From a virus (lineage: Duplodnaviria > Heunggongvirae > Uroviricota > Caudoviricetes), in the IMG/VR virus record IMGVR_UViG_2713896770_000036: a stretch of 19,591 nt of DNA. One strand, given 5' to 3'. The position numbers were made by a program. Of this stretch, positions 12,001 to 18,000 are shown piece by piece. The first letter of the stretch is position 1; each line of letters starts with the position of its first letter.

Positions 12001-15000
12001 TGCAGCGCGTACTGGCGTTTTACCAGAATGGTTTTCGAGAGATATTCGGTGAACAGGTTATGCATGAGGGAAATCATGGCACTCAGGGCAGTGTGTAGGC
12101 ACGTTGACGGTAGAAAGCATATGGGGGATCGATCGTTCTTGTTATGCTGTAAGAGCGAAAGCGCAGGCGCTGGGTATCAACAGGATGTTACGGGGTGACT
12201 TTCACTTGAGCTAGTGGGATCAATTTTACTGTTGGGGTGGGGGGACGTTAAGTTGCTGACAATTTCGAAATGTTTTTGATAAAGGCAGCGATTTTCTTTG
12301 ATGGAGGGGCTACAAAAAATTTTTCATGTGAAATATGATATCTGCGATGTTATCAAATGTGAAAATATTTATGAATCTGCAAAAAAGAAGAAAAGTTCAA
12401 AAACTAAACTATCGCGGGCAAGTTTCGAAACTGAAGAGGGGGATATTTAATTCTCTGAAAAGCACGGATTGGGAAGGAGTAGAAAATGCGAAGAGAAAAC
12501 TGGAATATTACAAACGCACTCGTAAGCTACGAGTCTCGAAGAAAAAGTTGACAACAAGTAATAAAAGGGTGGTTTTTTCTGCTCCGATATCTATTAATTA
12601 TTACAACGATCGTGATTTTGAAATCATGAATAAATTTTTAAATAATTTACGCGATTGCGTGTTGAAGAATAATCGTGTTTATATAGATTTTTCTTCAACT
12701 AAATATATAAGTGCAGCTGCTATGTTATCTTTTCTCGCTGAAGTTGATGTGCTTATTAAGAAAAGTGAATTTGGAGTAAATGCCATAGGGTTTTCACATC
12801 CGAAAGACAAGAAAATTGAAAGCATTTTGAATCAAGTCGGTTTCTATGATCTATTAAGGAAACCTAAAAGAGAAACTGAAAGTTATGATGATGTGACTTT
12901 TTGGAAATATACATCAGGTTCTTGTTCTGAGCCTCTTTTAGCAAAAGAAATGATGGTGGAAATAAAAAAAGAGTTAGAAAGAAAATCATCAAAAAAATTA
13001 TACCGTGGCTTTACTGAGGCCATGTCTAATTCTGTCGAGCATGCTTATGTTGATGATTTTATGCATACGGAAGATGACGAAACAGCTAAGTGGTGGACCT
13101 TTGCTGGCATACATGACAAAAATCTTACAGTGGTAATATGTGATAAAGGAGTGGGAATACCTTCAACATTGCCTAAAACACAAGGTGTAAGTGTGCTAAT
13201 GAACATCTTCAAAAAACTTAGAGTTCCATTAGCAAATGTAAAGGATTCTACTTATATAAAGGCTTCCACGTTACTTCAGGAAACGAGGACTGGGGAGCTG
13301 AACCGAGGTAAAGGCTTGAATGATATCAAATCGGTAATCGATTCAATAGGTGATGGTTTTATGGGGATTTTTTCATCAAAAGGGCGCTATATTTACAAAG
13401 GGAAAACTGGCATTATTAACGAAGTGCTTAGAGATTACAAAAGCTCTGTTAATGGTACTATAATTGAATGGACAATTCCTTGTGAGGTGGAAACTGAGTA
13501 GTATGAAAATTATAAAAGTAGCCAGTCGTTATCCTTGCCCAGGACCTCGTTTTAAAAGATTGGGGCCCGCTTCTGGTGAGGAGTTTCGTGAGTGGGTAGA
13601 AAGAGAGCTTAAACATTCACCAGATCTAACAATAGACCTTGATGGAACGGAGGGGTATGGTTCTTCTTTCTTGGAGGAGTGCTTTGGCGGATTGATTAGG
13701 CGTGGCGTGAGTCCTGATAAGGTTAAAGGGATTAAATTTATCTCAGAAGAAGAACCTGAGTTAATTGACGAGATAAATGAATATATCGAGGACGCTATAA
13801 AGGTATCTCATGGCTAATTCAAGTATCCAGGTCTGTACTTGGAGTGCAGACTTTTGGTGTAAGTTTTTTTCTTTGTTTAAAGATGAAAATCAGTATGTAA
13901 CTTGGTTTTTAGTTTTAGTTGGATGGGGGATTACGGCATATATTGCTTATCTCCAAACCACAAAAAGTAGAGGAGATGCTATTAAAGATGCTCATAATGA
14001 ATGGATCGGTGAGTTTAGACAAAAACTGGAGTTGCTTGAGGATTTTGCCTTAGAGTTCTGGGCTGAAGATAATAATAAAGAACCTACACTGGCGTTAGCA
14101 AAAATGAGTAGGGAGGTTAAGAGTTTAACTACTATCGCTAAAGAAATTGAAAGGGCCGGTGGTGAAAAATATAAGGCAAAATTGTTTAAGGAATTACGCC
14201 AAGCCATGACATATGATAGTGATGTTCACAACCGACCTCTAAGACCTGATTGTATGCAAATTGTTAGGATTAGAGAAACATGTGCAAGTTTGAGAAGTGC
14301 GTACGGGCGCAAAAGCTTGACTGAATAACCTCATATTGCTGAGTAGCTGGTACTGCATATTATTATGAAAACACATCGTGGTTTTTATATAAAAGCTGCT
14401 TATTATTAAGAGATCTGTTTTATGTTTTTGGCTAGTAAAATGTGATTCTTAACTTAAATGTTCCCTTACACTAGATTTATAATATCATCGTGTGATTTAT
14501 AAACTATGCATTAGTAATAATTAATTTTTCGGAAAAATAGTTAAGTAAAATTGCTGCGTGTGCTTGAGGCTATCTGCCTCGGGCATGAACACCAACGGCA
14601 GATAGAGAAAAGCCCAGTTAACATTACGCGTCCCGCAAGACGTTTAATATTAAACTTAGGCCAATTTCATGCTAGACACATGGATGTTAGCCTCTTACGT
14701 GCCGAAAGGCAAGGAGAAGCAGGCTATGAAGCAGCAAAAGGCGATGTTAGTCGCCCTGATCGTCATCTGTTTAACCGTCATAGTGACGGCACTGGTAACG
14801 AGGAAAGACCTCTGCGAGGTACGAATCCGAACCGGCCAGACGGAGGTCGCTGTCTTCACAGCTTACGAACCTGAGGAGTAAGAGACCAGGCGAGGGAGGA
14901 ATCCCTCGCCACCTCTGATGTGTCAGGCATCCTCAACGCACCCGCACTTAACCCGCTTCGGCGGGTTTTTTGTTGCGTGCTGAATGCGTAGGGTGAAAAA

Positions 15001-18000
15001 TAACCATATATTAGATTATATACACAACAAAAAATAAAAGTCATTGTACCTGCACATTAAACAATCAAATATACGGCGTGAAATAAATATTTTTCAGATT
15101 AATATTTTTGTCTCTATGTGGATATAACCTTTTGTACTTATAAACTGGGGGCATCGTGGAAAAAATAAAGAAACTATTTAGTAGCAAATACGCAGTCATA
15201 CGTCGTGATGACCTGTCAGTTATAGTCGAAATGGATTACTTCCCTGAAACCCCAAAATCAATGATGTATCGTAATGGTCGAAAGGCAATTTTTTTACCGA
15301 TGAGGGTAAGTGACATTATGGGAAATGATAAACTGCTGGATGAATTGCGAGTCAGAGCATCCTGTTAGTATTGGCATTAATTCTGTTATACTACATAACG
15401 GGCTGAACACCCATTCTACTGCGCCAGCGGAGAACTACGATGGCGCATATACAACTGGTCAAACAAACCTCTTCCGGATTACTTCTCCCGGCGACACCGG
15501 AGAGTTGCGATTTTTTGCATCAAATCAAAATAGGTGAGTGGATACACGCGGACTTTAAGCGAGTGCGTAACTACGCGTTCCACAAGCGTTTTTTCAAACT
15601 CCTGCAACTGGGATTCGATTACTGGACTCCGAACGGTGGGGCGATCACGCCTCGAGAACGAGAACTGGTGTCCGGTTTCGTTGAGTATCTGTGCGAATCA
15701 GTTGGTCGGGAACACACTCCAGCCCTGAGCGAAGCCGCAGAGCAATATCTGAATGCCGTTGCGACACGCAGAACCCGGGATACGGCATTGCTTAAGTCAT
15801 TTGACGCTTTCCGCGAATGGGTAACCATTCAGGCCGGATTTTACACCGAACATTTTTATCCGGACGGTAGTCGTGGGCGCAGGGCAAAATCTATCGCATT
15901 TGCGAACATGGACGAAACCGAGTTTCAGCAGGTTTATAAATCTGTACTGAATGTGCTGTGGAACTGGATCCTGTTCCGTAAATTTTCCTCTCCTGAGGAA
16001 GTCGAAAATGTGGCCGCACAGTTACTGGAGTTTGCGTAATGGTGGATTTACGTAAAGCGGCGCGGGGGCAGATGTGCACCGTCAGAATTCCTGGCTACTG
16101 CAATCACAATCCCGAAACTTCTGTGCTGGCGCATTACAGGCTGGCGGGGACGTGCGGAACAGCGACAAAACCACACGATATGCAGGCAGCGATTGCCTGC
16201 AGCTCATGCCACGATTTAATCGACGGGCGGGTAAAAACCAGCGATTACACCAAAGAAGAATTACGCCTGATGCATGCAGAAGGTGTTTTTCGTACGCAAG
16301 AAATCTGGAGAAAGGAAGGTTATTTATGATTTACCCAACAAATACAGGCAAAAGCGGGGAACACCTTCGTCTCACCACGCTGGAAAGTGTCTGGATTCAG
16401 GGAAAACTGCGCATGTGGGGGCGCTGGTCGTATATTGGCGGCGGTAAGACGGGAAATATGTTCAACCAGTTGCTGACCTCTAAAAAGCTGACAAAAACGG
16501 CAATTAACGAGGCGCTCCGGAGGATGAAAAAAGCAGGTCTGGACAAACCTGAACTTGAGGCTTTTTTGCGGGATATGATCAACGGCAAGCAAAAAAGCTG
16601 GCTGGTGCATTGTACTGATGCAGAGGCGTTATGCATTGATCGTGTGATTAGTGAAGTGCTGGCAGAACACCCAGGATTGATTTGTATCCTCCGGCAACGA
16701 TATGAAGGGAGGGGGATGACTAAGCGAAAAATGGCTGAATTGCTGAATGATTCACACCCTGAGTGGTGTTACGCCACGTGCCGTAATCGCATAGATGCGT
16801 GGTTGAAAATGGCAGAGTTTATGCTCTATCTGCCGATGCGTGATGCATTCTCTTCCGGGGATCTAAAAACCGTCTGTTGACTCAATCTGTTATCCGGGGC
16901 TATATTCCTCACGCGCCAGCAAAATCTGGCGTCGGGATTAGCACCCCGGATGTTTACGGAGCGATATGAGACGCGCCCGCGTCTTTTTTCATATCGTTTG
17001 CACAGTCACATTCGCGATTTATGGCGGGCTGTGTGGGGGAGCCGAAAGGCTCGCCGGTTTCCGTACCCGGTAGTGCTAACCCCGCACAGTTCGCCACCAC
17101 GATGATTAGCACCTGACGGTGGCGATAATGTCCAAATGTACGGAGTTATCGTTATGACCACTCAGATTTCTGTCGAAACTCTTTCCCCAATTACACACAA
17201 CCAAATTCCCGTTATCACTACCGAGTTACTGGCACAGCTTTACTGTACCGAGATCAACAACATCAAAGTAAATTACACCCGTAATTCCGAGCGTTTTGTT
17301 GAGGGTAAACACTTTTTCAAGGTTGTTGGTGATGAGTTGAAAAATTTGCGGGTTACTTTAAGTAACTCACAAACGCCTGTTTCCCCCAAAACCCGCTCCC
17401 TCATCCTCTGGACAGAACGAGGCGCAGCCCGTCACGCCAAAATGCTCGAAACCGATCAGGCGTGGGATGTGTTCGAAAAACTGGAAGACTGCTATTTCAG
17501 ACAAAAGGATCCGTCAGCGCCAGCTTCATGCCAGAAAAGTTACGACACGCGAGTTCTCTGTTATCAGCGAGGCGGTGTCACTGTTTCCACAATTCAGTTG
17601 CGGGATGATGATATTGTTATTTCCCTTGAGTCATGGCTGGAACTGGCGAGAGCCAATGGTTGGTTTGTTGTTCGCAGAGATAAACTGGTGGAAAGGCTGA
17701 TGCAGCTTTAAAAAAGTTCTTGCAATTTTAGCCATAAACTGCTTCAATTCCGGTACGCTTCGCAAAGCTGTATCGCGAGGCGAACCAAGCGCATGAACTT
17801 TACCAGAACCCGCCATTGAGCGGGTTTTTTATTGCGGAATTAATTACGGACCGTTATTATTCTGCTCCCGGCCCTTTAGCTCAGTGGTGAGAGCGAGCGA
17901 CGCATAATCGCCAGGTCGCTGGTTCGAATCCAGTACAACGCGCCACACTTATTTTCCCTGGCTCGCTTTTGCGGGCCTTTTTTTTAAATGTCTCACAATT

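What the first reader, a model, noticed from the sequence alone, without database searches (positions are those of the whole stretch)
12100..15155. AT-rich accessory island inserted between the replication and nin modules
GC content drops visibly from about 50% in flanking phage genes to AT-rich sequence across roughly 12.1-15.1 kb, and codon usage changes with it. This is the junction between replication and nin/Q genes, a recognised moron and defence-gene hotspot in lambdoid phages. Everything in the block (three-gene operon, hok/mok, a small orphan gene) looks like horizontally acquired cargo.
Basis: seen in the sequence. Interest (0 to 1): 0.5.

Follow-up and report, generated by a model that had tools for sequence, protein, structure and literature searches.

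The report
Kinase–STAS–membrane cassette in prophage hotspot
The AT-rich stretch is a real, swappable cargo slot in an E. coli lambda-like prophage, and its cargo is an uncharacterised three-gene cassette (a serine-kinase-like ATPase, its small STAS partner and a single-pass membrane protein) found in many prophages, most likely a phosphorylation-gated anti-phage suicide switch.

Summary
GC is 35.8% over 12200-14550, against 51% and 49% in the flanks, and this is the lowest-GC 2.35-kb stretch in the window. The block is a mosaic of three modules, not one island.

- **Variable slot, 12027-14559.** Eleven other related E. coli prophages carry eleven different cargos here, including IetAS. Only 24 of 5426 genomes carry this one.
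- **hok/sok, about 14560-14969.** GC is 52%; part of the query containing it (hokD, DUF977) matches 4825 genomes. It is backbone, not AT-rich cargo.
- **Small AT-rich gene, 14970-15418.** It occurs in 173 genomes.

The slot holds a tight operon:
- A is a STAS-plus-GHKL protein whose best structural matches are the anti-sigma serine kinases SpoIIAB and RsbW. It is distantly homologous to CapK.
- B is a DUF4325 STAS protein, the same Pfam family as VapS, with a near-invariant Ser-Ser at the VapS phospho-site.
- C is a single-pass membrane protein with a cytoplasmic four-helix bundle.

The A-B-C order is kept in every locus with room to check it (about 70), and often lies just downstream of the phage CI repressor, where lambda carries rexAB. 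No defence-database model matches it.

Best reading: a new effector variant of the kinase-gated VapKSC system. No function has been tested.

The parts
11637..12098 (+). DUF977 / Ren-like gene, the left landmark of the slot. Its last ~20-24 codons (from 12027-12043) belong to the acquired segment, giving a 153-aa variant.
   Evidence: Pfam DUF977 E 2e-28; PHROG 'Ren-like exclusion protein'. Homology with other prophages stops at 12026-12042.
12027..14559 (+). The variable cargo slot proper: acquired AT-rich segment (about 37% GC) carrying the A-B-C operon and its AT-rich non-coding flanks.
   Evidence: Homology with O157 MB9-1 (L092) ends at 12026 and resumes at 14560; no direct repeats at the edges. 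GC. Whole query region (11900-15500) at >=80% coverage in only 24 of 5426 E. coli genomes.
12371..13501 (+). Gene A, 376 aa: basic N-terminal helical hairpin (about 3-52), STAS-like domain (about 67-183) and an anti-sigma-factor-type GHKL serine-kinase domain (about 188-370).
13503..13817 (+). Gene B, 104 aa: STAS-like DUF4325 protein and predicted kinase substrate; motif GYGSSFLEE with Ser54/Ser55. It starts 1 nt after the stop of A.
   Evidence: Pfam PF14213 E 5.6e-12. VapS belongs to the same family, E 2.7e-17. Ser54 aligns with the VapS Ser48 phospho-site. The SS motif is present in 60 of 62 distinct homologues.
13810..14328 (+). Gene C, 172 aa: single-pass membrane protein, N-terminus out and C-terminus in, with a cytoplasmic four-helix bundle; the predicted effector. 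It overlaps the end of B by 8 nt.
14560..14969 (+). hok/sok type I toxin-antitoxin module (sok/leader region 14558-14731, hokD CDS 14726-14881, terminator-like hairpin 14950-14967). It has normal GC and is conserved backbone, not part of the AT-rich cargo.
   Evidence: Rfam sok RF01794, 97.6 bits. Pfam HOK_GEF E 1.7e-23. 93% identity to hok loci of prophages with other cargos. GC 51.6%. Terminator pattern.
14970..15418 (+). AT-rich (34.7% GC) module with the 70-aa small gene 15156-15368 of unknown function; an independently assorting backbone piece.
   Evidence: phrog_1813 E 1.7e-32. Present in 173 of 5426 genomes, also without A-B-C. Annotated as a hypothetical protein in other records.
15440..16880 (+). 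Right flank: nin/Q-type module (NinB/Orf-like DUF1367, HNH/DUF1364, Q-like antiterminator DUF1133).
   Evidence: PHROG hits 4.5e-70, 1.6e-42 and 2e-81; Pfam DUF1367.

Best explanation
The AT-rich block marks the cargo slot at the ren-like/ninB junction of a Rac/lambda-like E. coli prophage. The slot (12027-14559) holds a horizontally acquired three-gene operon.

A is a serine-kinase-type GHKL ATPase fused to a STAS domain and a very basic N-terminal hairpin. B is a small DUF4325 STAS protein carrying the conserved phospho-acceptor serine. C is a single-pass inner-membrane protein whose four-helix bundle faces the cytoplasm.

The proposed mechanism follows the experimentally characterised VapKSC system. 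In the lysogen, unphosphorylated B holds the cytoplasmic domain of C inactive. A cue produced by an infecting phage activates A, which phosphorylates B on Ser54/55. B then lets go, and C self-associates and damages the membrane. This stops the infection at the cost of the cell, as in abortive infection or superinfection exclusion.

Shown here: the island, the hotspot, the domain identities, the conserved catalytic and acceptor residues, the strict A-B-C linkage and the prophage contexts.

Inferred: kinase activity, the B-C interaction, the trigger, C as a toxic effector, and any anti-phage phenotype.
For: **Island and hotspot.** GC and GC3 discontinuity. Eleven alternative cargos at the same site, including IetAS. 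Rarity in E. coli, 24 of 5426 genomes.

**A.**
- N-box, G1, G2-like and G3 motifs are invariant across 24 divergent homologues.
- Profile-to-sequence alignment with CapK covers STAS and GHKL together (prob 86%, E 4.9e-6). Alignment with VapK covers the GHKL part only (E 7.6e-5).

**B.**
- Pfam DUF4325, the same family as the VapS antitoxin.
- Ser54 aligns with VapS Ser48.
- The SS motif is present in 60 of 62 distinct homologues.

**Operon.** There is a 1-nt gap between A and B and an 8-nt overlap between B and C.

**Linkage.**
- A is followed at once by a B homologue in all 24 genome loci. A 120-200-aa third gene, usually with one predicted membrane helix, follows B in 23 of them; none was detected in L013.
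- A-B-C is complete in 39 of the 41 close viral contigs (L040-L080), and the other two are cut by the contig end.
- Distant relatives also carry a single-pass third gene.

**Context.**
- The gene directly upstream is a phage CI repressor in about 14 of 39 viral loci and in 4 of 24 genome loci.
- The same position is seen in Marinobacter phage AS1 and in the inducible Francisella phage KIRK (PMC7924643). This is where lambda keeps rexAB.
- Other neighbours include type I R-M, MADS, PDC-S11 and MzaA.

**Precedent.** VapK phosphorylates VapS to release the VapC toxin, and the system protects against phage Bas42 (PMC13373217).
Against: - No experiment exists for this cassette.
- No PADLOC model matches any of the three proteins, so the defence assignment rests on context and analogy.
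- Similarity of A to CapK and VapK is remote, and the profile of A finds nothing in the PDB by sequence.
- The similarity of B to VapS is weak outside the shared Pfam family (E 0.33 and 1.3e-3).
- By eye, on the alignment and the OCR'd VapK sequence, the position I take to correspond to the aromatic residue reported for ssDNA sensing in CapK/VapK is not conserved in A, so the trigger may differ. This is a manual alignment, not a tool result.
- The fold of C is a generic helical bundle with no informative match. A single-pass protein is not an obvious pore former.
- In this window the operon lies in the early-right transcription unit, not next to the repressor, and no convincing promoter of its own was found. 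Expression in the lysogen is therefore unproven here.
- Many homologous loci sit among ordinary chromosomal genes.
Confidence: 0.55

Rival explanations
1. The parts are the same but wired as a classical partner switch, as in SpoIIAB-SpoIIAA-sigmaF. The kinase A itself binds and silences C. B is the antagonist that pulls A off C while it is unphosphorylated, for instance when ATP falls during infection. A phosphorylates B to reset the switch.
For: The closest structural relatives of A are the anti-sigma factors SpoIIAB and RsbW, which bind their target directly and phosphorylate the STAS antagonist. SiaB/SiaC-type switches also appear among the hits.
Against: In the only characterised relatives with DUF4325 or STAS partners (CapKS and VapKSC), the STAS protein, not the kinase, binds the output, and phosphorylation releases it. 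B and C overlap by 8 nt, a hint of stoichiometric co-production.
Confidence: 0.2
2. The cassette is a regulatory or signalling module of the prophage itself. It might couple a membrane or DNA-damage signal to the lysis-lysogeny decision, or act as a plain addiction (toxin-antitoxin) module that stabilises the prophage, with no role against other phages.
For: Frequent placement directly after the CI repressor gene. CapK/CapS are transcriptional regulators. In this window it sits next to another addiction-type module, hok/sok.
Against: B is only 104 aa and lacks the winged-helix DNA-binding domain that makes CapS a repressor. In E. coli the cassette occupies a slot that otherwise holds accessory and defence cargo such as IetAS. 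The position after cI is also where exclusion genes such as rexAB sit (established knowledge of phage lambda).
Confidence: 0.15
3. The AT-rich stretch is ordinary compositional variation in a mosaic prophage and the three ORFs are unrelated hypothetical genes with no joint function.
For: Other parts of the window (int/xis, the immunity region) are also AT-rich. The window-based codon-adaptation index does not separate the island genes.
Against: It is the lowest-GC segment in the window by 6 points. It is replaced wholesale in relatives. Gene order A-B-C is kept in about 70 loci, from Gammaproteobacteria to Arcobacter and to very distant phage contigs, at 22-100% identity of A.
Confidence: 0.02

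Closest known systems
VapKSC kinase-gated toxin-antitoxin/defence system (Chambers et al., EMBO J 2026, PMC13373217)
   Same: A three-gene operon in the order kinase, STAS protein, effector. The kinase is a STAS-plus-GHKL fusion. The middle protein is a small DUF4325 STAS protein with a conserved serine at the same alignment position.
   Different: The third gene is a single-pass membrane protein with a helical bundle, not a VapC PIN nuclease. A carries an extra, very basic N-terminal hairpin of about 60 aa. B lacks the C-terminal helix that VapS inserts near the VapC active site. Sequence similarity is remote (E 7.6e-5 for the kinase, 1.3e-3 for the STAS protein). The ssDNA-sensing aromatic residue did not look conserved on a manual alignment, so this point is not settled.
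CapK/CapS DNA-damage-responsive regulators of immune operons (same paper)
   Same: A aligns with CapK across both the STAS and GHKL domains (prob 86%, E 4.9e-6). The kinase gene is always followed by its STAS partner.
   Different: CapK has an N-terminal HTH where A has a basic hairpin. CapS carries a winged-helix domain and is a repressor of a downstream operon, whereas B is a bare STAS domain followed by a single membrane-protein gene rather than a CBASS, Bub or Thoeris operon.
Anti-sigma-factor partner-switching modules (SpoIIAB/SpoIIAA, RsbW/RsbV, SiaB/SiaC)
   Different: There is no sigma factor and no PP2C phosphatase in the operon. The STAS domain is fused to the kinase as well as encoded separately. 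The cassette is phage-borne and mobile.
Lambda RexAB and other repressor-linked exclusion genes
   Same: In many prophages the genomic position is immediately downstream of the CI repressor and co-oriented with it. A membrane protein is the likely output. This comparison rests on established knowledge of lambda.
   Different: There is no sequence or fold relationship. RexB is a four-pass channel-like protein and RexA is not a kinase. In this window the cassette is at the ren/ninB junction, not in the immunity region.
Moron/defence hotspots of temperate phages (for example the P2 and P4 hotspots, or the lambdoid replication-nin junction)
   Same: A fixed slot flanked by conserved genes and filled by alternative cargos, including known defence systems (IetAS), with low GC.
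   Different: Nothing unusual. This part of the finding is an ordinary example of a known phenomenon.

Membership tests
VapKSC | Kinase with fused STAS and GHKL domains | tested here: met
VapKSC | Small STAS (DUF4325) protein with a conserved Ser/Thr phospho-acceptor, encoded directly after the kinase | tested here: met
   B is PF14213, E 5.6e-12; VapS is PF14213, E 2.7e-17. B Ser54 aligns with VapS Ser48. The SS motif is in 60 of 62 homologues. B follows A in all loci.
VapKSC | Third gene encodes a VapC-type PIN nuclease toxin | tested here: not met
   C has no PIN match in Pfam, NCBIfam or PADLOC. It is an all-alpha single-pass membrane protein.
VapKSC | VapS C-terminal helix that blocks the toxin active site | tested here: not met
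   B is 104 aa and ends about 20 residues after the STAS core. The alignment to VapS covers only residues 19-73 of VapS.
VapKSC | Kinase activated by ssDNA through a conserved aromatic residue; protection against phage | not testable with these tools
   This needs biochemistry, phage assays or AlphaFold 3 co-folding. By manual alignment the equivalent position in the A family is not a conserved aromatic.
CapK/CapS regulators | CapK architecture HTH-STAS-GHKL | tested here: inconclusive
   The STAS and GHKL regions align. The N-terminus of A is a basic helical hairpin (net charge about +15 in 60 aa) rather than a recognisable HTH.
CapK/CapS regulators | CapS = STAS plus a winged-helix DNA-binding domain, repressing a downstream immune operon | tested here: not met
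   B is a bare STAS domain of 104 aa. Downstream is one small membrane-protein gene, not an immune operon.
Anti-sigma partner-switching module (RsbW/RsbV type) | GHKL serine kinase with N-box and G-boxes intact | tested here: met
Anti-sigma partner-switching module (RsbW/RsbV type) | A sigma factor target and a PP2C phosphatase in the module | tested here: not met
   None in the operon or its immediate flanks in the window.
Prophage cargo/defence hotspot | Conserved flanking genes with alternative, unrelated cargos in related elements | tested here: met
   Eleven different cargos downstream of DUF977 in eleven other prophages; junctions mapped.
Known anti-phage defence systems (PADLOC-DB v2) | A significant match of any component to a catalogued defence protein model | tested here: not met
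   Only noise-level hits, E 0.026-0.039.
hok/sok type I toxin-antitoxin | Hok/Gef toxin ORF with the sok/leader RNA region upstream | tested here: met
   Pfam HOK_GEF E 1.7e-23; Rfam sok 97.6 bits against a gathering score of 59.

The most novel reading that the evidence does not exclude
A-B-C is a previously unrecognised, widespread prophage-borne immune system. The kinase family alone has at least 866 distinct 50%-identity clusters. An anti-sigma-type serine kinase and its STAS partner gate a single-pass membrane effector. The system occupies the same repressor-linked position as lambda rexAB, and may be its functional counterpart.
Probability: 0.4. Interest if true: 0.72.

Novelty: new variant of a known kind. 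Interest (0 to 1): 0.58.

Why it matters
The island itself is a textbook case and adds one more well-mapped example of a lambdoid cargo slot. The cargo is what deserves attention.

It extends a sensor-and-switch pair described in 2026 (CapK/CapS and VapKSC) to a third kind of output, a membrane protein. It also places that pair in many temperate phages, often right behind the repressor gene, where lysogen-protecting genes are expected. If it works as proposed, three things follow:

- Defence catalogues would gain a sizeable family that they currently miss.
- It would be a clean test of whether phosphorylation-controlled release is a portable logic in bacterial immunity.
- It would offer a simple three-gene system for asking what phage cue such kinases read.

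Tried and rejected
- **Defence and naming libraries.** PADLOC, NCBIfam and Pfam scans of A, B and C gave no defence-family or named match beyond weak HATPase hits and DUF4325.
- **PDB by sequence.** The profile of A found nothing. The profile of B gave only marginal STAS and VapS hits.
- **Promoter and terminator scan of 11900-15600.** It found no more sites than shuffled controls and no plausible promoter upstream of A. Only the hairpin after hok looks like a real terminator.
- **Direct repeats at the slot edges.** None of 8 nt or more, so there is no sign of transposition or site-specific insertion.
- **Literature.** Searches for the protein accessions, DUF4325, STAS with defence terms, and GHKL with prophage terms found no description of this cassette. 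The exceptions are hypothetical-protein entries in the Francisella phage KIRK table and the CapK/VapKSC paper.
- **ssDNA sensing.** I considered that A senses ssDNA like CapK. This stays open, because the reported aromatic position does not look conserved.

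
Full report
**Where the window comes from.** The window is 100% identical to the chromosome of bovine E. coli strain F2_407_2_2 (NZ_CP074756). It covers a lambdoid, Rac-like prophage integrated next to yebY/copD. Window coordinates equal the coordinates of locus L001 minus 101. On the + strand the early-right arm reads as follows:
- a cro-like gene and ydaT;
- an O-like replication initiator (9295-10083) and a DnaC-like loader (10090-10836);
- DUF1627, which is frameshifted;
- DUF977, which PHROGs calls a 'Ren-like exclusion protein' (11637-12098);
- the block in question;
- a NinB/Orf-like gene (15440-16039), an HNH gene and a Q-like antiterminator (16326-16880).

**The observation.** GC falls from 51.1% (9295-12098) to 35.8% (12200-14550) and returns to 49.4% (15440-17711). 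The lowest-GC 2351-bp window in the sequence starts at 12201. No window outside the block is below 41.8% (mean 48.0, sd 2.8). Third-position GC is 0.30, 0.35 and 0.31 for the three operon genes and 0.36 for the small gene, against 0.45-0.64 for the neighbouring genes.

Two caveats apply. The int, repressor and cro-like genes are also AT-rich (GC3 0.36-0.38). A codon-adaptation index built from the window's own genes does not discriminate the island genes.

**The block is a mosaic of three modules.**
- *Closest relative.* The closest relative with different cargo (L002, 92-93% identical backbone) loses homology at 12042 and regains it at 15419. In between it carries IetA/IetS.
- *Same-backbone strain.* O157:H7 strain MB9-1 (L092) has the same backbone. 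Homology runs to 12026 and resumes at 14560. It keeps hokD and the small gene, while a different two-gene cargo fills the gap.
- *Other prophages.* Other prophages share only the hok/sok piece (14538-14969, 93% identity).

The true variable slot is therefore 12027-14559, and its left junction lies inside the last ~20-24 codons of DUF977. The hok/sok module has 51.6% GC. It is confirmed by Pfam HOK_GEF and by the Rfam sok model, and hokD recurs at the right edge of the slot in most of the related prophages examined. Parts of the query that contains it match 4825 of 5426 genomes. The AT-rich piece 14970-15418, with the 70-aa gene (phrog_1813), occurs in 173 genomes. The whole query region carrying the cassette is covered at 80% or more in only 24 of 5426 genomes. 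In the three such records inspected, the cassette sits at this same site. No direct repeats flank the slot.

**The hotspot.** Besides this window, eleven prophages sharing the DUF977 landmark carry eleven different contents downstream of it:
- IetA/IetS;
- two hypotheticals plus sce7726 and a beta-family protein;
- small hypotheticals including DUF7167;
- an alpha/beta hydrolase;
- DUF262 with an AAA ATPase and a hypothetical;
- QueH;
- a methyltransferase fragment plus QueH;
- hypotheticals with DUF551 and ORF6N;
- a hypothetical with KilA-N;
- an IS element with ydfW, flxA, ydfV and relBE;
- a hypothetical with an HTH protein.

**The operon.** A (12371-13501), B (13503-13817) and C (13810-14328) are separated by 1 nt and by an 8-nt overlap.

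*Protein A.* A has only sub-threshold Pfam HATPase hits. Its family alignment nevertheless shows invariant Bergerat-fold motifs: E216/N220 in MSNSVEHAY, D258-G260-G262 in CDKGVGI, R312-G313-K314-G315, and G362-T363-I364-x-E366. The AlphaFold2 model (pLDDT 81, pTM 0.80) has three parts: an N-terminal helical hairpin, an alpha/beta domain and the GHKL domain.

*Protein B.* B is a DUF4325 STAS-like protein (E 5.6e-12). It has an invariant core, GYGSSFLEEAFGGL. The Ser-Ser pair is present in 60 of 62 distinct homologues.

**Conservation of the triad.** A pattern scan of one genome per species returned 25 loci, and A itself was found in 24 of them, spanning Gamma-, Alpha- and Betaproteobacteria and Arcobacter. 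In every one of these, A is followed at once by a B homologue. In 23 a third gene of 120-200 aa, usually with a predicted N-terminal membrane helix, comes next; none was detected in L013.

IMG/VR returned 52 viral contigs. A-B-C is complete in 39 of the 41 close ones, and the other two are truncated by the contig end. The most distant ones (22-28% identity in A) again carry a single-pass third gene overlapping B. An exhaustive profile search finds 866 cluster representatives of A at E<=1e-30 and 2519 at E<=1e-10. Nearly all of the 150 best hits listed are 260-400 aa, most of them 340-390 aa.

The cassette is more AT-rich than its surroundings in 20 of 22 genomes, by 11 points on average. It therefore behaves as a mobile unit.

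**Genomic context elsewhere.** The gene immediately upstream of A is a phage CI repressor in about 14 of 39 non-redundant viral loci. That count adds 7 Phage_CI_repr hits and 7 Peptidase_S24 hits, which I take to be different loci. The same holds in 4 of 24 genome loci.

Marinobacter phage AS1 has the cassette on the repressor side of its cro/CI switch. The published gene table of the UV-inducible Francisella phage KIRK lists, in order: cro, an S24 CI repressor, a 293-aa hypothetical with its best hit in phage AS1, a 112-aa DUF4325 protein, and a 125-aa membrane protein (PMC7924643).

That position is where lambda carries rexAB, which are co-transcribed with cI; this rests on established knowledge, not on a test made here. 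Other neighbours include type I restriction-modification, MADS, PDC-S11 and MzaA proteins and P2-type structural and regulatory genes, alongside many housekeeping genes.

**Comparison with what is known.** The only literature hit linking STAS proteins, GHKL kinases and phage defence is Chambers et al. (EMBO J 2026, PMC13373217).
- *CapK and CapS.* CapK (HTH-STAS-GHKL) phosphorylates CapS (STAS plus a winged helix) to de-repress immune operons after DNA damage.
- *VapKSC.* VapK (STAS-GHKL) phosphorylates the antitoxin VapS on Ser48, which releases the VapC nuclease. The operon gives about 100-fold protection against phage Bas42.

I took the sequences from that paper's appendix and compared them:
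- the A profile aligns with CapK over 240 columns spanning both domains (prob 86%, E 4.9e-6);
- it aligns with the GHKL part of VapK (E 7.6e-5);
- VapS is a DUF4325 protein like B;
- the crystal-structure chain 'Escherichia VapS' (9z7o) is the second-best PDB sequence hit of the B profile, with B Ser54 opposite VapS Ser48.

The cassette fails two defining features of VapKSC: the PIN toxin and the C-terminal inhibitory helix of VapS. It also fails the defining DNA-binding domain of CapS. No PADLOC model matches. I therefore file it as a new effector variant of the GHKL-STAS kinase-switch kind, not as a member of either named system.

**Mechanism.** The best-supported reading has four steps:
1. 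B keeps the cytoplasmic bundle of C inactive.
2. A phage-derived cue activates A.
3. A phosphorylates Ser54/55 of B, and B releases C.
4. C oligomerises and compromises the inner membrane, aborting the infection.

The basic hairpin of A may read a nucleic-acid cue, but this is speculation. By eye, the aromatic residue implicated in ssDNA sensing in CapK/VapK is not conserved here.

The main rival is the canonical SpoIIAB-type wiring, in which A sequesters C and B is the antagonist. Lesser rivals are a prophage-internal signalling or addiction role. All functional steps are inferred, and none was or could be tested with these tools.

**Verdict.** The island should be narrowed to 12027-14559, and hok/sok removed from the 'AT-rich cargo'. 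The island as such is ordinary. Its cargo is an uncharacterised, widespread, phage-associated three-gene cassette. Its closest characterised relatives were published only in 2026, and it swaps their output for a membrane protein.

Noticed in passing
window 16900-17711: A P1/P7-type antisense immunity arrangement inside a lambdoid prophage. The Rfam c4-a1b1 target (16900-16952), isrK (16913-16989) and C4 antisense RNA (17017-17101) lie directly upstream of an ORF6N/anti-repressor gene (17154-17711).
   Followed up: no
window 18022-18277: STnc100 sRNA (18022-18215, +) lies next to AgvB, the prophage-encoded anti-GcvB sRNA (18216-18277, -). A tRNA lies at 17876-17935.
   Followed up: no
window 2169-2534: A RalR/RalA type I toxin-antitoxin pair: RalA sRNA at 2169-2347 (216 bits) overlaps the ralR region (2340-2534, -). 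This is a second type I TA system in the same prophage besides hok/sok.
   Followed up: no
window 7345-7396: DicF antisense sRNA on the - strand, in the kil/ydaE-side early-left region.
   Followed up: no
window 463-607: The chromosomal SraC/RyeA and SdsR/RyeB sRNA pair lies immediately beside the prophage integrase end. The prophage therefore sits at the yebY-ryeA/B locus.
   Followed up: no
window 4495-6324, 10859-11621, 18662-19591: Signs of prophage decay in the source record: recE is annotated as a truncated pseudogene, DUF1627 is frameshifted, and an IS903B transposase interrupts the late region.
   Followed up: no
window 12027-12098: The recombination junction of the cargo slot lies inside the DUF977 (Ren-like) gene. 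In the three carrier records inspected, this gives a different C-terminus (153 aa instead of about 140 aa).
   Followed up: partly
L081-L091 (IMG/VR contigs): Very distant versions of the cassette (A 22-28% identical, B about 140 aa) still carry a 164-168-aa single-pass third gene overlapping B. This suggests the triad extends well beyond Proteobacteria.
   Followed up: partly
L037 9284-10502 (E. coli ETEC1701): In porcine ETEC carriers of the cassette, the same prophage encodes a scabin-related ADP-ribosyltransferase and a subtilase-family AB5 toxin B subunit downstream of the Q-like gene.
   Followed up: no
L031 4622-7825 (E. coli AQ15): The same slot holds a three-gene set, DUF262 with an AAA ATPase and a hypothetical, which looks like another candidate defence cargo.
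   Followed up: no
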